IMG/VR virus record: IMGVR_UViG_2519899780_000005
DNA length: 47,693 bases
Reading direction: 5' to 3' (one strand)
Source of the DNA: a virus
Lineage: Duplodnaviria; Heunggongvirae; Uroviricota; Caudoviricetes
The notes under the pieces were generated by a model. That model ran no database searches, had not been told where the DNA came from, and worked only from the letters and a program-made list of their open reading frames with translations. How positions within the stretch are numbered: the stretch's first letter is position 1; the number at the start of each line of letters is the position of its first letter. Shown here one piece after another: positions 15,616 through 42,079 of the stretch. The translations under genes were made by a program, and so were the position numbers.

Positions 15616-16368
15616 TTACCCTGCAGCGCCCGCTTCAGTAACGGTGACTTCAGCCACTGCGGCGAACTGACCATTTCCGCTCACCACAGGGATCTGCACC
15701 TTACCTGTCGCCACGCCGTTTACCGTAATTGTCATATCTTTCACACTAATGGTGGCTTTCGACGGATCGGCGGAAACCGCTCTGAACGTCTTGTCGGTTG
15801 CACTTTCCGGCTCAAAAGAAACCGTCAGGGTGGTTGTTTTCCCTTTTGCCACCGTACCGGATGTCGGCGTCACCTTAATCGCACTGACCGGCGTAATTTT
15901 GCTGCGTTCTTCCGCTACAGAAGGTTTACCCACGTTAGTGACTTTCACCGTGCGGGTGATCACTTCTTTCGCCGTCACGGCCTTACCGATACTGCTGACC
16001 CAGCCACGAAACACATCCACCGTGCCATTCGGAAAACGGATTTTATAGGCCCGGACATCGCCGCTTTCAAACCAGCCTATAAGCCCTTTCTGACATTCCT
16101 CTCCCGGTTTCCAGGCCAGCGTAAAACTGGTATCACCTGCAGATTTCTGCCCCTGCCCGGTCGCGGTCCAGTCTGCGTCTTCATCATCCAGGTAGTTATC
16201 ATCGTAGGATTCTGCCGTCATCTCGCCCGGCGTCAGATCCTTCACCTTAGCCAGTCGCTGCCAGTCAGCGTCTGACAACGGGTTTGCATAAGCATCACCC
16301 TTGCCGTTGTAAACCCACAGAGTGGTACCGGCACCTTTTACTGGCTCCAGGGGATTTGGTGTTGCCAT
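15616..16368 (-). CDS. V: Major tail protein V with C-terminal Ig-like domain
   Basis: [33 protein letters not shown]... matches recalled lambda gpV. Confidence 0.95.
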
Positions 16369-16375
16369 ATCGTCC

Positions 16376-33200: not shown

Positions 33201-33307
33201 TTAACAGAACTTTTATTTTTGACAAACATATAATATTTTCAACAATATCCTGAGCCAGGTATATTTCAGTATAAGGCTCTGCCGAAAGGAATCTGGAAGA
33301 ATGAATA

Positions 33308-33384
33308 TGGCGCGCTGTACTGGATTCGAACCAGTGACCGATTGCTTAGAAGGCAATTGCTCTGTCCGGCTGAGCTAACAACGC
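33308..33384 (-). tRNA. tRNA-Arg (anticodon UCU)
   Basis: Cloverleaf folds by hand: acceptor GCGTTGT/ACAGCGC, anticodon loop CUUCUAA, T-arm GGTTCGAATCC, 3' CCA; probably argO or argN of Stx-phage nomenclature. Confidence 0.85.
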
Positions 33385-33397
33385 ATGATGCAGATAA

Positions 33398-33474
33398 TGG
33401 ACCGCCATCGGGGACTTGAACCCCGCGCAGCCAGCTTCGAAGGCTGGCGCTCTATCCCGATGAGCTAATGGCGG
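33398..33474 (-). tRNA. tRNA-Arg (anticodon UCG)
   Basis: Anticodon stem CCAGC/GCTGG with loop CUUCGAA, T-arm GGTTCAAGTCC, 3' CCA. Confidence 0.8.
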
Positions 33475-33481
33475 TATGTGA

Positions 33482-33557
33482 TGGTGGCCCTTGCTGGATT
33501 TGAACCAGCGACCTGGCGATTATGAGTCGCTCGCTCTCACCACTGAGCTAAAGGGCC
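33482..33557 (-). tRNA. ileZ: tRNA-Ile2 / Met-like (anticodon CAU)
   Basis: GGCCCTTTAGCTCAGTGGT…ACTCATAATCG…GGTTCAAATCC…CCA; CAU anticodon in an Ile2-like body. Confidence 0.8.
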
Positions 33558-33606
33558 GGAAGCAGAATAATAATGGTGCGTAATTAATTCTGCAATCTCA
33601 TCCGTT

Positions 33607-37923: not shown

Positions 37924-38079
37924 TTACTCCTCAGGTTCGTAAGCTGTGAAGACAGCGACCTCCGTCTGGCCGGTTCGGAGTCGTACCTCGCAGAGGTCTT
38001 TCCTCGTTACCAGTGCCGTCACTATGACGGTTAAACAGATGACGATCAGGGCGATTAACATCGCCTTTTGCTGCTTCAT
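37924..38079 (-). CDS. hok: Hok/Gef family type I toxin (51 aa)
   Basis: MKQQKAMLIALIVICLTVIVTALVTRKDLCEVRLRTGQTEVAVFTAYEPEE matches the recalled Hok family sequence. Confidence 0.85.
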   Translation of the reverse strand: MKQQKAMLIALIVICLTVIVTALVTRKDLCEVRLRTGQTEVAVFTAYEPEE

Positions 38080-38316: not shown

Positions 38317-39003
38317 TCACTCCTTCTCTTCTTTTCCGTAGTGGAGTTGGCCAATTTTGATAAGAGGGCGTCCCTGAGATTTGCGGTGTAGATTGGTATC
38401 GCGCAGAGAATACACACAGCCACAATATTCCTGCTGATAGAATTTTTCGCGCTTGCTGATTTCAATCATACGGGACGAGCCGCCCTGCTTGCGCCAGTTA
38501 TAATCCCAGTACACCATACCCGGATAATGCGCAACAGCTCGCCGCCCACACTCGTTAACCTGCTGCATATTTTTCCAGCGTGAAATGCCCAGTGAACTGC
38601 TGATCACACTGAAACCATTTTCAGCAGCGTACAACGCTGTCCGCTCAAAACGCATGTCAAAACACATGGTACAACGGATCCCCCTCTCAGGCTCCCATTC
38701 CATTCCTTTGGCACGTTCAAACCAGTTGTCGGTGTCGTAATCAGCATCGATAAACGGCACGCCGTGTTGTTCAGCAAAGCGAATATTTTCATCCTTACGA
38801 ATTAAATACTCTTTCTGAGGATGAATGTTCGGGTTGTAGAAAAAGATGGTGTAGTCGATTCCCGAGGCCTGAAGCGCCTCCATCACTTCACCGGAACATG
38901 GAGCACAGCAAGAGTGCAGTAGTAGTTTGTTTGCCCCGTTTGGGAGCTCCAATTTAGGCCGTTTGAAATCAGCAATAGTCATAAATATTTTTATTGGGGT
39001 CAT
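38317..39003 (-). CDS. QueH-like (DUF208) putative epoxyqueuosine reductase
   Basis: N-terminal [14 protein letters not shown] motif plus additional conserved Cys; identification from memory of the DUF208 signature. Confidence 0.5.
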
Positions 39004-39156
39004 GAAAATAGCACAGAGTGTAGCATCAGAGCAGGGCTATCGGGAATATATGTCTAAATCTGGTAATATCTGGTTTTGACGCAAAGCGGACAACCACGCT
39101 GGCTCTACCCTGCGCCATGAAAATGTCAATTCACATCTGAACTAATGCTCTTTAAT

Positions 39157-39582
39157 CTAGTAACGTCTAAAATACCTAACATTTCCTTGATAAAATGCCA
39201 GTACACGCTGCATAGCTTCGCTCTTCCGGCACTCGCGACAGATTATATTCAGGCGCCTGTCGTAGCGGCGTATTTCGCCGTCTGGTAACGACCAGATAAG
39301 GTCCGGATCAACCACTGCAGGTTTCTTCACCTTTGCCCTTGAGAGTTTTTTGCGAGCATTTTGCCAGTCCTTACGCGCCTGTTCAGACGGGAATAACCCG
39401 TAACCAGAGTTGTATACATCGCCACTGGCAACCAGTTCTCTGGCCAGAACGCTCATCAGATATCTTGTTGCCCCAGTTTTAGTTTCCAGTTGTCGTAACG
39501 TCTCGCGCCCACTCTGGCGTACGAGTTCAACAACCTGCCCTTTAATTTTCTCCCGCTCTTCTTGTGTAAAAACTTTTGCCAC
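39157..39582 (-). CDS. Hypothetical protein (141 aa, GTG start)
   Basis: AGGAGG 5 nt upstream of the GTG; basic C-terminus with CxxC. Confidence 0.5.
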   Translation of the reverse strand: MAKVFTQEEREKIKGQVVELVRQSGRETLRQLETKTGATRYLMSVLARELVASGDVYNSGYGLFPSEQARKDWQNARKKLSRAKVKKPAVVDPDLIWSLPDGEIRRYDRRLNIICRECRKSEAMQRVLAFYQGNVRYFRRY

Positions 39583-39622
39583 AAGCCCTCCTGAAAATTA
39601 CCTCATGACCAGAAATTAACAC

Positions 39623-40585
39623 TTACCCCCTGAAGCCCGGCGGAATTTCAGTGTCCGGTTCAGAAATGTGATTCACGCAACGCTGCGCAGGCGAACGCCC
39701 CAGGCGGATAACCAGTTCATCCCATTTTTCCCGGAGTTTTGCCGGACTCATGATGTTTTTTACCCAGAACGAATCCCGCTGGAGACGCCCAAACATTTCA
39801 CAAATTTGTCTGTGAGTTCTGCCATCCAGCATCCGCATTGTGCGAACGTCATTGGCCCATGCTGTCCAGTTGGGTTCTTTCGGTCTAGTGATCTCGCCAT
39901 CATCGCTGGCCGCCTGCTCGTAAAGACTCACGATTCGTCCCCAGATCCACTGTGCGCACACCAAATCTTCCTGACTTCCCCACTGGCGTTTTTTCGCACT
40001 GAACACAACCGCGTCAGGGTGTCGGGTTAAAAAATCCTGTTCAGCCGTCTGCGGGTCCGGTTGCGAAGCGTCCGGACAAGAAGATCTTTTATCTGACGGA
40101 TCAGGTTTTAATACTGACGGATCGGGGTCAATCATCGCCCCCCTAATCGGCAGTTTTTTATCAACAGTTGATCCATCAAAATTTGACGGGTCAACCGTTG
40201 AGGGGTCAATATTTGACGGGTCAACTGTTAACGGGTCATTTTTTGCCGGGCTAATTTTTCTTTTCGGTTTATATGACTCACGCGCCGCCGCCGCAGCTGC
40301 TTCGAGTTTTTCCACATTAAGCCGATAGATATTGCTTACATTACGCCCACCGACCTTACGCTCTTCCTTCGTCAGCCAGCCCTCTTTCGCCAGTTCTGCA
40401 ATAGCCGATTTCACTGTGGATTCACTTCTTGCACCGATCTGACGCCGGATAGTTTCAATGGCAGGCCATGACACGCCCTCGTCATTGCTGTAGTCTGCAA
40501 GACGGGCCATAACCGCCACCCTGGATAAGATCATGCCGGTGAAGGCGCACCCTTCCCAGACAAGACCATGAAGCTTGCTGCTCAT
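39623..40585 (-). CDS. Replication initiation protein (O-like, N-terminal HTH) containing the origin iterons
   Basis: Position after the Cro/YdaT-like genes; DPS-repeat peptide encoded by DNA iterons; GGGGG SD before the ATG. Confidence 0.65.
   Translation of the reverse strand: MSSKLHGLVWEGCAFTGMILSRVAVMARLADYSNDEGVSWPAIETIRRQIGARSESTVKSAIAELAKEGWLTKEERKVGGRNVSNIYRLNVEKLEAAAAAARESYKPKRKISPAKNDPLTVDPSNIDPSTVDPSNFDGSTVDKKLPIRGAMIDPDPSVLKPDPSDKRSSCPDASQPDPQTAEQDFLTRHPDAVVFSAKKRQWGSQEDLVCAQWIWGRIVSLYEQAASDDGEITRPKEPNWTAWANDVRTMRMLDGRTHRQICEMFGRLQRDSFWVKNIMSPAKLREKWDELVIRLGRSPAQRCVNHISEPDTEIPPGFRG
40168..40270. repeat. Origin-like iterons (ttgacgggtcaa-type, 4-5 copies, ~14-bp period) plus adjacent AT-rich tract inside the O-like gene
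   Basis: ttgacgggtcaa twice, ttgaggggtcaa, ttaacgggtcat, then cattttttgccgggctaattttt. Confidence 0.6.
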
Positions 40586-40607
40586 AAAACCCCCGAACAC
40601 CGTGCTT

Positions 40608-41033
40608 TTAGTGCATCACCACAGCATTCCCTGCCGGGCCGCCGCGATTCATCTGGTCATACAAAACAACCGCTGACGCAACAAAATCATCGACATCCTT
40701 CACCAGCCGATCCCTCCGTTCGACGATCTCACGATAATATTCAGAACTGTGGCTGCGCATACGGGCCACCAGCAAAGGCGGCATCGCCTTTTCGATCGCC
40801 GGTAACAGAGCCTGCATTTTTTCAACAGCATCAGGGGTGTCTTTCTCTACCCAGCGGAAAATTTTCTGGGTATTGCGAGCCAGGGCTTCCGGATGGCTGT
40901 CGTCATACAGTTCTGGGAACGTCATACCCAACTCAAAATAAGCCTGGGTTATTCCAGCTGCTGGAACTTTTTCGCCATCAGGACGCGCCCAGGCATTCAT
41001 CGCCATGCGGATGTGTTCATGCTTGATTTTCAT
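40608..41033 (-). CDS. YdaT-like protein
   Basis: 141 aa starting MKIKHEHI…; start overlaps the stop of the upstream Cro-like gene (ATGA). Confidence 0.55.
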   Translation of the reverse strand: MKIKHEHIRMAMNAWARPDGEKVPAAGITQAYFELGMTFPELYDDSHPEALARNTQKIFRWVEKDTPDAVEKMQALLPAIEKAMPPLLVARMRSHSSEYYREIVERRDRLVKDVDDFVASAVVLYDQMNRGGPAGNAVVMH

Positions 41034-41284
41034 GAATCAACTCCCATCAGCTTTTTCGTAGTAGTTTTATTCCTGCCAATAGTTAAAATTGCATCGGCAG
41101 AAAATAATCCGTTTGATGCAAGAGCGATTTTTTCAGCGTAATTTGTTTCGCCGGTATATTCTGTGCGAGGCAATTTTCCGTTATCCATCCATTTATAGAT
41201 TGCTCTTTGGCTGACACCACAAACGTCGGCCACAACAGCAACGCGAACAGTTTTGATTACATCTTCAAGTGTTTTCTGGTTCAT
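41030..41284 (-). CDS. Cro/YdaS-like HTH regulator (84 aa, start MNQKTLED)
   Basis: HTH-like segment …VADVCGVSQRAIYKWMDNGKLP…; divergent from the repressor gene. Confidence 0.65.
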   Translation of the reverse strand: MNQKTLEDVIKTVRVAVVADVCGVSQRAIYKWMDNGKLPRTEYTGETNYAEKIALASNGLFSADAILTIGRNKTTTKKLMGVDS

Positions 41285-41363
41285 ATCACCCTCACAATGT
41301 GAACTTTGAGTACATGCTATAACAGAACTGACAGTACATTCAAGAGCGAATATCATTGAACTT
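41285..41363. promoter_or_regulatory. Divergent promoter/operator region of the immunity switch
   Basis: 80-bp intergenic region with repeated TTGA-GTACAT … GTACAT-TCAA elements. Confidence 0.4.
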
Positions 41364-41783
41364 ATGGTTCATGAAGATAAAGCGCGTAAAGAGTTCGCCA
41401 GTAGGCTTGCGCTAGCCTGTGAAAACGCTGGTTATGAACAACATGGAAGGCAGGCAGAAATTGCCCGTCGAATGAAATTAACACCAAAAGCGGTTAGCAA
41501 ATGGTTTAATGGCGAAACAATTCCTCGCCGGGAGAAATTAAGGGAATTAGCAACACTAATAGGAACAACACCAACCTATCTTTTGGGAGAGGATACAGAA
41601 GAAAGTGGACAGGTACGTTTCTATCAGGAGTTAAATCCAAGACAAAAAATCATCATTGACCTTCTGGACGAGCTCCCTGACAGTGAGACAGATGAACTTT
41701 TAAAAACTCTTGAAGAGAAAAAACAGAAGTACAATGCAATTTACGAAGAGTTAGCACGAAAGAAAAAACAAAAAGCCTCTTAA
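41364..41783 (+). CDS. Prophage repressor (XRE-family HTH), in the DicA position
   Basis: …QAEIARRMKLTPKAVSKWFNGETIPRREKLRELATLIG… HTH; heads the ydfA-dicF-dicB-like operon. Confidence 0.75.
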   Translation: MVHEDKARKEFASRLALACENAGYEQHGRQAEIARRMKLTPKAVSKWFNGETIPRREKLRELATLIGTTPTYLLGEDTEESGQVRFYQELNPRQKIIIDLLDELPDSETDELLKTLEEKKQKYNAIYEELARKKKQKAS

Positions 41784-42079
41784 ACCAGCATAAATCCGGT
41801 AGCGCCTTCCTCCGGGTTTGTGCTTCACTTTATCCCATCTCATTTTTTTACACACAAAATGTACCAAAAGTACTTTACAACAATGAACGCAAAGTACATT
41901 ATATACCTGCCACCACCCCGCCCCACAGAATGCAGGGCAATACTTCGAGTTACCAGGCAGTGGTCAGGGGTTAAGTAGCCAGCCCGAGGCGTAAGAACAT
42001 GACGGCAGGGTTCAACTTTAATAACTATGCAGCAGGTTTTTGTTCCGCTACCCCGGCGTTAAGGGGAAATGAGGTCAGC

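What the first reader, a model, noticed from the sequence alone, without database searches (positions are those of the whole stretch)
40168..40270. Origin-like iterons embedded in the O-like replication gene
Four or five ~12-bp repeats at ~14-bp spacing, followed by an AT-rich tract, lie inside the coding region and are reflected as DPS-repeat peptides. This is the lambda ori arrangement and marks the likely phage replication origin. No P or DnaC-like helicase loader is evident downstream, so the loader may be novel or host-derived.
Basis: partly seen in the sequence, partly recalled or inferred. Interest (0 to 1): 0.4.

Follow-up and report, generated by a model that had tools for sequence, protein, structure and literature searches.

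The report
Replication-origin repeats inside a prophage initiator gene
A prophage of E. coli O104:H4 carries, inside its own replication-initiator gene, a tight row of short palindromic DNA repeats that are conserved as DNA rather than as protein. This is most likely the phage's replication origin, built on the textbook lambda plan but with a different initiator family and no phage-encoded helicase loader.

Summary
Window 40163-40239 contains five head-to-tail 15-bp units (not ~14 bp). In gene sense each has the 12-bp palindromic core TTGACCCGTCAA. They lie in the disordered linker of a 320-aa O-like initiator on the minus strand (39623-40585).

The repeats are constrained as DNA:
- Recoding the same peptide with synonymous codons gives four or more TGA-N4-TCA sites with P = 4.5e-5.
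- Across 62 homologous genes the core T-G-A-N4-T-C-A is kept while the amino acids change (DPS, EGS, DAS, VPS).
- The repeat serine is TCA in 120 of 128 units, against 16% elsewhere in the same genes.

Two further conserved sites (GATCCGTCAG twice, 40093-40123) flank a family-conserved AT-rich, GATC-rich stretch. This lies downstream of the repeats in gene direction, as in lambda.

No P, DnaC or DnaB gene exists anywhere in the prophage. Sister prophages pair the same initiator allele with a DnaC-like gene. More distant relatives with a different C-terminal tail carry a lambda-P gene. The initiator ends with the last 20 residues of host DnaT, which points to host-dependent helicase loading.

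Verdict: a lambda-type origin in a non-lambda-O initiator family. Origin activity is inferred, not shown.

The parts
39623..40585 (-). O-like replication initiator gene (320 aa, stop codon included). It has an N-terminal winged-helix domain, a disordered linker, a helical C-terminal domain and a DnaT-like tail.
   Evidence: PHROG 391 at E 2e-115 and Pfam PF13730 HTH_36. PGAP annotates a helix-turn-helix domain protein, WP_000095671.1. AlphaFold model.
40271..40585 (-). N-terminal winged-helix DNA-binding domain (aa 1-105), the presumed iteron reader.
40163..40239 (-). Iteron array: five 15-bp units with the 12-bp palindromic core TTGACCCGTCAA. Cores lie at 40228-40239, 40213-40224, 40198-40209, 40183-40194 and 40168-40179. 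The last is an inverted, degenerate copy.
   Evidence: Recoding test P = 4.5e-5. The family position matrix keeps T-G-A-N4-T-C-A. Serine codon bias.
40093..40131 (-). Distal conserved sites: TTGACCCCGATCCGTCAG (40114-40131) and TGATCCGTCAG (40093-40103). These are two exact GATCCGTCAG copies 21 bp apart, and both fit the (T)GA-N4-TCA pattern.
   Evidence: the only two exact copies in the window. A pair of such sites 18-24 bp apart lies downstream of the array in 60 of 62 homologous genes.
40073..40118 (-). Candidate DNA-unwinding region: AT-rich spacers (GTATTAAAACC and GATAAAAGATCTTCTT in gene sense) around the distal sites, with three GATC sites.
   Evidence: The 30-mer 40084-40113 is 70% AT and in the least stable 2.4% of the window. 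In 44 of 62 homologues the most AT-rich 30-mer of the whole gene starts 45-64 nt after the array. GATC density is 19.5 per kb here against 3.7 per kb in the rest of the gene, family-wide. The role is inferred.
40240..40280 (-). In gene sense it lies upstream of the iterons and encodes KPKRKISPAKN.
   Evidence: 65-73% AT. 40251-40280 is the least stable 30-mer in the gene. It is not AT-rich in relatives (mean 49% AT for the 40 nt upstream of the array).
39695..40054 (-). Helical C-terminal domain (aa 178-297), the presumed replisome-recruitment domain.
39626..39685 (-). C-terminal tail QRCVNHISEPDTEIPPGFRG, matching the last 20 residues of E. coli DnaT.
   Evidence: NCBIfam PRK02854 DnaT positions 159-179 of 179. 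phmmer against PDB DnaT chains 2ru8, 6aep and 9zbt_D at E 1e-4 to 3e-4. The identical tail occurs on the otherwise unrelated initiator of phage Tritos.
39157..39582 (-). DUF977 gene immediately downstream (a 40-bp gap). It takes the place where relatives have a loader gene. Its role is unknown.
   Evidence: Pfam PF06163 at E 3e-28 and PHROG 142 'Ren-like exclusion protein'. The O-to-DUF977 junction is present in 1849 of 5426 complete E. coli genomes.

Best explanation
Window 40073-40280 is the replication origin of this lambdoid prophage, embedded in the linker-coding part of its initiator gene.

Proposed mechanism:
1. After induction the O-like protein is made from the rightward early operon.
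2. Its N-terminal winged-helix domain, probably as dimers, binds the five closely packed palindromic iterons (TTGACCCGTCAA, 15-bp register) and the two distal GATCCGTCAG sites.
3. The resulting nucleoprotein complex destabilises the adjacent AT-rich, GATC-rich stretch, most likely at about 40084-40118. That stretch is downstream in the direction of transcription, as in lambda.
4. The C-terminal domain and its DnaT-like tail then bring in the host DnaB helicase through host DnaC, because the prophage encodes no loader of its own.

What is shown:
- The repeats, their palindromy and their position in the linker.
- Selection at the DNA level across the family.
- A different set of repeats at the same position in the mEp460 gene, which has a different N-terminal domain.
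- Absence of a loader gene.
- Tail identity with DnaT.

What is inferred: binding by the N-domain, origin firing, the site of unwinding, and the route of helicase loading.
For: 1. Array geometry and chance. Five units at exactly 15 bp, and all near-matches in 47.7 kb are confined to 40168-40239.

2. DNA-level constraint in this window. The same peptide recoded with the region's own codon usage gives four or more TGA-N4-TCA sites with P = 4.5e-5.

3. DNA-level constraint across the family.
- In 151 distinct units from 62 genes of many Enterobacterales genera, information content is high at T, G, A ... T, C, A, including the synonymous serine third position (1.54 bits).
- It is low at the non-synonymous positions of codon 2 (0.58-0.68 bits).
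- Serine at unit position 3 is TCA in 120 of 128 units, against 16% TCA elsewhere in the same genes.
- Serine at position 5 is TCT in 62 of 82, against 9% elsewhere.
- AGC, 34% elsewhere, is never used in the repeats.
- The base before each unit is T whatever the amino acid (I, V, F, S, P, N, C, Y).
- DPS (TGACCCCTCA) and EGS (TGAGGGGTCA) units are reverse complements and occur together in 7 arrays.

4. Position. The array encodes a disordered linker between two folded domains.

5. Modularity. mEp460 shares the C-terminal domain but has another N-terminal domain. It has different repeats at the same place: 23-bp units with dyad symmetry, four or five copies, plus three 12-bp units.

6. Copy number. 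It varies in steps of 5 aa among alleles of 86% identity or more (protein lengths 320, 315, 310, 305), as lambda (4) and Stx phages (6) differ (PMC7466680).

7. Fold. The N-domain resembles dimeric winged-helix regulators that read palindromes.

8. Conserved downstream architecture. There are two sites 18-24 bp apart. The most AT-rich 30-mer of the whole gene starts 45-64 nt after the array in 44 of 62 genes. GATC is about fivefold enriched.

9. Viable phages replicate with loaderless modules built on this C-terminal module or initiator family. No P, DnaC or DnaB gene is annotated in the regions examined around the initiator in mEp460 and Tritos, nor anywhere in the whole SfIV genome.
Against: - No experiment shows origin activity or initiator binding for any member of this family in the literature I could reach. 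The SfIV genome paper PMC3851460 does not mention an origin, and the SfV paper is not held.
- The AT-rich stretches are modest (65-77% AT in 30-mers) compared with the lambda AT-rich region as I recall it, and they occur on both sides of the array.
- A 15-bp centre-to-centre spacing is not helically phased and is unusually tight for dimer-per-site binding, so the true binding register is unknown.
- The units are related by descent, so counts over units are not independent. The internal contrast between synonymous and non-synonymous positions addresses this only partly.
- The prophage has a frameshifted tail gene and may not be inducible, so the origin may be intact but unused in this strain.
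Confidence: 0.75

Rival explanations
1. The repeats are only a slippage-prone, low-complexity protein linker (pentapeptide DPSxx). The DNA periodicity is a by-product with no function as DNA.
For: The region encodes a disordered linker. Copy number changes by whole 5-aa units, as expected for replication slippage. Linkers tolerate such variation.
Against: The peptide is poorly conserved (position 2 is P, G, A, T, V, R or H; position 1 is D, E, V, H or N), while the bases T-G-A-N4-T-C-A are kept. This includes a synonymous site that is more conserved than non-synonymous ones. The recoding test gives P = 4.5e-5. Inverted copies of the core (DPS versus EGS) make sense only as DNA.
Confidence: 0.07
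2. The repeats are real protein-binding sites but not the origin. For example, they could be sites for autoregulation or copy-number control of the initiator, or targets of another phage or host protein such as DUF977, the CII-like protein, or Dam/SeqA acting through the GATC sites. The true origin would lie elsewhere.
For: In iteron plasmids, by my recollection, iterons also act in negative control by handcuffing. The GATC cluster suggests input from the methylation state. Two DnaA-box-like 9-mers flank the array.
Against: No other repeat cluster or comparably organised region was seen in the early region. The motif occurs nowhere else in the window. The position inside the initiator gene, with a different set of repeats in a gene with a different N-domain, is the signature of the lambda-type origin (PMC7466680). 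Control functions and origin function are not mutually exclusive.
Confidence: 0.1
3. The array is a former origin in a replication-defective prophage remnant. Loss of the DnaC-like loader gene, which sits between the O-like gene and DUF977 in sister prophages, has left a module that can no longer fire.
For: The same O allele is followed by a DnaC-like AAA+ gene and DUF1627 before DUF977 in pZ1322PEC0161-2 and, by the junction search, in 1243 E. coli genomes. One tail gene of this prophage is frameshifted.
Against: The direct O-to-DUF977 junction is even more common (1849 genomes). It is present in isolated phages (mEp460, Tritos, HannyBb, vB_EcoS-640R1). SfIV, an isolated phage, has no annotated loader at all. 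The host supplies DnaC. The O gene here is intact.
Confidence: 0.08

Closest known systems
Bacteriophage lambda ori with O protein, and the Stx-phage variants with six iterons
   Same: The origin lies in the middle of the initiator gene. It has tandem initiator-binding repeats with internal dyad symmetry. The repeats fall in the linker between a DNA-binding N-domain and a recruitment C-domain. An AT-rich tract lies downstream in the direction of transcription. Copy number differs between relatives. The gene sits in the rightward early operon after cro- and cII-like genes (PMC7466680).
   Different: The initiator matches Pfam HTH_36, not Phage_rep_O. The iterons are 12-bp cores in a 15-bp register rather than the ~19-bp lambda units (sequences as in PMC7466680, Table 1). 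The AT-rich tract is weaker and carries a GATC cluster. There is no P gene. The C-terminus carries a DnaT-like tail.
Loaderless ('initiator-solo') phage replication modules, a class I recall from Weigel and Seitz 2006, FEMS Microbiol Rev (paper not held; from memory). Examples seen here are Shigella phages SfII and SfIV, and coliphages mEp460 and Tritos.
   Same: A single origin-binding initiator with no phage helicase, loader or primase. SfIV gp41 ('primosomal protein') is a homologue (53% identity over residues 1-177) and is the only recognisable replication gene in that genome. The homologous gene of vB_EcoM-720R4, matched at the same 53% identity, carries the same pentapeptide TGAC..GTCA repeats.
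   Different: No origin has been described for these phages in the papers I could read (PMC3851460). The present locus belongs to the MSSKLHG subfamily, whose unit is TTGACCCGTCAAnnn rather than TCTGACGCATCAAAA.
Iteron plasmids with winged-helix Rep initiators (pPS10, R6K, RK2, P1 oriR)
   Same: A winged-helix initiator, tandem binding sites next to an AT-rich unwinding element, and reliance on host DnaB-DnaC. P1 oriR also has a GATC cluster in its AT-rich part (established knowledge; review PMC4980987 for the general scheme).
   Different: No Rep_3 or other plasmid Rep Pfam match. Plasmid iterons, as I recall them, are about 17-22 bp spaced about two helical turns apart and lie outside the rep gene. 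Here the units are 15 bp and lie inside the gene.
E. coli DnaT (primosomal protein i)
   Same: The last 20 residues are nearly identical: QRCVNHISEPDTEIPPGFRG against [20 protein letters not shown].

Membership tests
Lambda-type origin (iterons plus AT-rich tract inside the initiator gene) | Three or more tandem direct repeats with internal dyad symmetry inside the initiator coding sequence | tested here: met
   Five units at 15 bp with the palindromic core TTGAC-CC-GTCAA.
Lambda-type origin (iterons plus AT-rich tract inside the initiator gene) | Repeats are under selection as DNA, beyond what the encoded peptide requires | tested here: met
   Recoding test P = 4.5e-5. Serine TCA in 120 of 128 units against 16% elsewhere. 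A synonymous site is more conserved than non-synonymous ones.
Lambda-type origin (iterons plus AT-rich tract inside the initiator gene) | Repeats lie in the linker between the DNA-binding N-domain and the C-domain, and differ when the N-domain differs | tested here: met
   The linker at residues 107-169 has pLDDT about 30. mEp460 has a different N-domain and different repeats at the same place.
Lambda-type origin (iterons plus AT-rich tract inside the initiator gene) | AT-rich unwinding tract adjacent to the iterons, downstream in the direction of transcription | tested here: inconclusive
   A downstream stretch at 40084-40118 is 65-70% AT, and its position is conserved in 44 of 62 genes. It is weaker than the lambda tract as I recall it, and a second AT tract lies upstream at 40251-40280. 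Unwinding was not tested.
Lambda-type origin (iterons plus AT-rich tract inside the initiator gene) | Initiator binds the repeats, and the fragment supports replication in cis | not testable with these tools
   Needs EMSA or footprinting and a plasmid replication assay.
Lambda O protein family (Pfam PF04492, Phage_rep_O) | Sequence match to the Phage_rep_O N-terminal domain | tested here: not met
   A Pfam scan at E 0.01 or better returns only HTH_36 (27.8 bits) and a sub-threshold DnaD_N match.
Lambda O-P initiator and helicase-loader module | P-type (PF06992) loader gene immediately downstream of the initiator | tested here: not met
   The downstream gene is DUF977. The RefSeq annotation of the whole prophage lists no P, DnaC or DnaB gene, and tblastn with P-like and DnaC-like queries finds nothing in the window. 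A P gene is present in relatives with non-GFRG tails (L005, L007, L008, L009 and others).
PHROG 391 / Pfam HTH_36 O-like initiators (type of SfII, SfIV and vB_EcoM-720R4) | Full-length profile match, with N-terminal HTH_36 above the gathering score | tested here: met
   phrog_391 at E 2e-115 over residues 6-325 of the 325-aa ORF. PF13730 scores 27.8 bits against a cut-off of 25. 915 homologues at E 1e-5 or better.
DnaT (primosomal protein i) | Match to the whole protein, including the three-helix ssDNA-binding C-terminal domain | tested here: not met
Plasmid iteron Rep initiators (Rep_3 and relatives) | Rep-family sequence match, with iterons outside the rep gene at about two-turn spacing | tested here: not met
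   No Rep Pfam match. The repeats are inside the gene at 15-bp spacing.

The most novel reading that the evidence does not exclude
The DnaT-like C-terminal tail (…SEPDxxIPxGFRG) is a portable docking peptide. Phage origin-binding proteins of several unrelated architectures would use it to plug directly into the host DnaC-type helicase-loading pathway, by mimicking the restart protein DnaT. This would explain why these phages can dispense with a loader gene, and it would identify a function for the DnaT tail itself.

Supporting observations:
- The identical tail sits on three different initiator types: this one, the mEp460 type and the Tritos Phage_rep_org_N type.
- In 63 loci, initiators with a GFR tail never have a lambda-P-like or DnaC-like gene within 4 kb (0 of 39). 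Initiators with other tails do in 10 of 24 (Fisher P = 1.5e-5, not corrected for phylogeny).
- Where a loader does accompany this tail, in E. coli sister prophages, it is DnaC-like and never P-like.

In addition, the 15-bp packed palindromic iterons may define a polymer-like mode of initiator binding unlike lambda's O-some.
Probability: 0.3. Interest if true: 0.65.

Novelty: new member of a known kind. Interest (0 to 1): 0.4.

Why it matters
- It locates the probable replication origin of a prophage family present in most sequenced E. coli: 4344 of 5426 complete genomes have a match to this 2-kb region. The family extends to SfII/SfIV-type Shigella serotype-converting phages, for which I found no origin described.
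- It gives a clear example of a coding sequence whose codons are dictated by a DNA-binding site rather than by the protein.
- It supplies testable predictions for how loaderless temperate phages recruit the host helicase, including a possible role for the unexplained, conserved C-terminal tail of DnaT.
- The lambda plan of an origin inside the initiator gene is textbook, so on that central point the finding is expected rather than surprising.

Tried and rejected
- Rfam scan of 38900-41900 at E up to 1: only a chance mir-250 hit on the palindromic array (21 bits against a gathering score of 58). No RNA element.
- Promoter and terminator scan of 39000-41900: nothing in the array.
- DnaA boxes: two one-mismatch 9-mers flank the array, at 40158-40166 and 40308-40316. 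One overlaps an iteron-like sequence, and such matches occur 18 times in the window. Not used as evidence.
- My first reading, 'the GFRG tail replaces a loader gene', had to be weakened. The same O allele is followed by a DnaC-like gene in pZ1322PEC0161-2 and in 1243 E. coli genomes. It is now phrased as 'never with lambda P; with DnaC-type or none'.
- Plasmid search for independent evidence of autonomous replication: most hits lie in very large records, and the 16-kb and ~40-kb circular records look to me like prophage or phage DNA deposited as plasmids. Not evidence for plasmid-type maintenance.
- Literature: no hits for 'initiator-solo', for DUF977 with replication, or for PPGFRG or 'DnaT-like' in a phage context. 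Weigel and Seitz 2006 and the SfV genome paper are not held.
- DNA-curvature modelling was not done, because I had no validated parameter set at hand.

Full report
**Context**

The window is a complete lambdoid prophage integrated beside ompW in E. coli O104:H4. It is 100% identical over the 2-kb query to strain 2011C-3493 and many others.

The finding lies in the rightward early operon, which is read on the minus strand. In order it encodes:
- a cI-like repressor (41364-41783, plus strand),
- a cro-like HTH protein,
- a YdaT/CII-like protein (40608-41033),
- the O-like gene (39623-40585),
- DUF977 (39157-39582),
- then QueH, hokD, DUF968, RusA and the Q antiterminator.

**The observation**

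The repeat finder reports five copies at exactly 15-bp intervals. Read in gene sense, the units are (T)GACCCGTTAACAGTT, GACCCGTCAAATATT, GACCCCTCAACGGTT, GACCCGTCAAATTTT and GATGGATCAACTGTT, at window 40237-40163. They encode DPLTV, DPSNI, DPSTV, DPSNF and DGSTV.

The core is TTGACCCGTCAA, a 12-bp palindrome. The fifth unit is best read as an inverted copy.

All matches to this 12-mer with two or fewer mismatches in the whole 47.7 kb lie in 40168-40239. Otherwise the description is accurate.

**Is it DNA or just peptide?** Three independent lines say DNA.

1. Recoding. I kept the peptide and drew synonymous codons from the usage of eight genes of this prophage's early region. Four or more TGA-N4-TCA sites arose in 9 of 200,000 trials.

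2. Family comparison. I fetched 79 loci encoding relatives from one genome per species and extracted 285 repeat units (151 distinct) from 62 genes.
   - The consensus is T-GA(C/T)-(G/C)C-N-TCA-AAA-T(C/T)T.
   - Information is concentrated on T, G, A ... T, C, A, A.
   - The amino acids at unit positions 1, 2, 4 and 5 are highly variable (2.1-2.7 bits of entropy).
   - The synonymous third base of the serine codon carries 1.54 bits. The two non-synonymous bases of codon 2 carry 0.58-0.68 bits. Third positions in the well-conserved N-domain average 0.64 bits.
   - Serine at unit position 3 is TCA in 120 of 128 distinct units, against 16% TCA elsewhere in the same genes. Serine at position 5 is TCT in 62 of 82, against 9%. 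AGC, the commonest serine codon elsewhere (34%), is never used.

3. Orientation. Units such as DPS (TGACCCCTCA) and EGS (TGAGGGGTCA) are reverse complements of one another. They coexist in the same array in 7 genes. That is meaningless for a peptide but natural for a symmetric DNA site.

**Where it sits in the protein**

AlphaFold, run with a 62-sequence alignment, gives:
- a confident N-terminal winged-helix domain (residues 1-105),
- a disordered segment at 107-169 (pLDDT about 30),
- a confident helical C-terminal domain (178-297),
- a disordered tail.

**Modularity**

- Phage mEp460 shares the C-terminal domain and DUF977 at about 88% DNA identity up to window ~40090.
- It has an unrelated N-terminal domain.
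- Its linker carries a different set of repeats: 23-bp units with dyad symmetry, four or five copies at 23-24 bp, plus three 12-bp units.
- Phage Tritos shares only the last 20 residues.
- Among close E. coli alleles the protein length steps by 5 residues (320, 315, 310, 305), through gain or loss of whole units.

All this is the behaviour described for the lambda-type origin. There, iterons and an AT-rich tract lie in the middle of gene O, and lambda has four iterons while Stx phages have six (PMC7466680).

**The rest of the origin**

Downstream of the array in gene sense lie two exact copies of GATCCGTCAG, 21 bp apart (40114-40123 and 40093-40102). They are the only exact copies in the window, and both fit (T)GA-N4-TCA. 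A pair of such sites 18-24 bp apart follows the array in 60 of 62 family genes.

In 44 of 62 genes the most AT-rich 30-mer of the entire gene starts 45-64 nt after the array, that is, at these sites.

GATC density in the 110 nt after the array is 19.5 per kb, against 3.7 per kb in the rest of the gene. 55 of 62 genes have two or more GATC there. This window has four GATC in 40083-40173.

I therefore place the likely unwinding element at about 40084-40118, downstream of the iterons as in lambda. Both tracts are only moderately AT-rich, so this part is inference.

**The loader question**

The RefSeq annotation of the entire prophage lists no P, DnaC, DnaB or primase gene. tblastn with lambda-P-like and DnaC-like queries finds nothing in the window.

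Relatives are informative.
- Family members whose C-terminus ends in ...GWEDVL or similar are followed, usually with a 4-nt overlap, by a bona fide lambda-P gene (PF06992, E 6e-59). One with another tail is followed by a DnaC/IstB-like gene.
- Members ending in ...IPxGFRG (39 loci, including this one) have neither within 4 kb. Members with other tails do in 10 of 24 (Fisher P = 1.5e-5, not corrected for phylogeny).
- That tail is the C-terminus of host DnaT: QRCVNHISEPDTEIPPGFRG against [20 protein letters not shown] (NCBIfam; PDB chains 2ru8, 6aep and 9zbt_D).

The rule is not absolute.
- In the 16-kb record pZ1322PEC0161-2, a 96% identical O allele with the same tail is followed by a DnaC-like AAA+ gene, DUF1627 and DUF977.
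- That junction occurs in 1243 complete E. coli genomes. The direct O-to-DUF977 junction seen here occurs in 1849.

So the tail goes with a DnaC-type loader or with none, never with lambda P. No loader gene is annotated in the regions examined around the initiator in the isolated phages mEp460 and Tritos, nor anywhere in the SfIV genome. The simplest reading is that the loaderless form uses host DnaC-DnaB.

How DnaT itself recruits DnaB/DnaC is unresolved (PMC13377028). What the tail binds is therefore unknown.

**Comparison with known systems**

Functionally this is a lambda-type origin. It is not a member of the lambda O Pfam family: HTH_36, not Phage_rep_O.

It differs in three respects:
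- iteron geometry, with 12-bp palindromes in a 15-bp register rather than ~19-bp units,
- the absence of a P gene,
- the DnaT-like tail.

It belongs to the large PHROG 391 O-like family (915 homologues at E 1e-5 or better), which includes the initiators of Shigella phages SfII and SfIV. I found no description of an origin for this family in the literature I could reach.

**Verdict**

It remains untested experimentally (confidence 0.75).
- It is a new member of a well-known kind of element, so interest is moderate.
- The most novel lead is the DnaT-tail mimicry shared by several initiator architectures.

Noticed in passing
window 39626-39685 (-): The last 20 residues of the O-like initiator (QRCVNHISEPDTEIPPGFRG) match the last 20 residues of the E. 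coli restart protein DnaT. The identical tail is found on the unrelated initiator of phage Tritos and on the mEp460-type initiator. Tail type correlates with loader type: it is never found with lambda P, and occurs with a DnaC-like gene or with none.
   Followed up: partly
window 40083-40173; L005-L083, 110 nt after each array: A GATC (Dam site) cluster lies next to the iterons: four sites in 91 bp here, and 19.5 per kb family-wide against 3.7 per kb in the rest of the gene. In many relatives the gene right after the initiator is a Dam (PF05869) or MT-A70 methyltransferase. This suggests methylation-linked control of the origin.
   Followed up: partly
L003:3972-4143 (phage mEp460_ev081, O-like gene): A different initiator N-domain has its own repeat set at the equivalent linker position: four or five 23-bp units with dyad symmetry (CATCnGGnCATTTTGACCnGATG) at 23-24 bp spacing, then three 12-bp units (TATTCTCTGTAG).
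   Followed up: partly
L085 (NZ_CP148542.1, pZ1322PEC0161-2, 15,977 bp circular): A record deposited as a plasmid consists only of lambdoid early and lysis genes: cI/cro, the same O allele, a DnaC-like gene, DUF1627, DUF977, hokD, RusA, Q, holin and lysozyme. The O reading frame is interrupted exactly in the distal-site region (…IDPIRQY*), either by a sequencing indel or by a real frameshift. It is unclear whether this is an autonomously replicating mini-phage replicon or an assembly artefact.
   Followed up: no
window 39157-39582 (-): DUF977 (named 'LygF' or 'Ren-like exclusion protein' in phage records) always travels with the DnaT-like tail block in the E. coli phages examined. It also follows the DnaC-like gene in sister prophages. 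Its role, in replication or exclusion, is unknown.
   Followed up: no
window 40158-40166 and 40308-40316 (+): Two DnaA-box-like 9-mers (TTATCAACA and TTTTCCACA, one mismatch each) flank the iteron array. Such matches occur 18 times in the window against about 10 expected, so this may be chance.
   Followed up: no
window 38317-38982 (-), 37924-38079 (-): The prophage carries an epoxyqueuosine reductase QueH gene (Pfam E 1e-65) and a hokD type I toxin gene between the replication module and DUF968/RusA/Q.
   Followed up: no
L080 (uncultured Serratia MAG), initiator C-terminus: One relative ends in …IPEGFNQNLPATNQGGTDDDFI, an acidic-aromatic tail that reminds me of the SSB C-terminus (from memory). 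It is followed by a DnaC-like gene.
   Followed up: no
window about 15621-16371 (-) and about 33300-33560: The RefSeq annotation of the identical O104:H4 prophage marks one tail gene as frameshifted, so the prophage may be defective for particle formation. It also lists three tRNA genes (Arg, Arg, Ile) upstream of the late genes.
   Followed up: no
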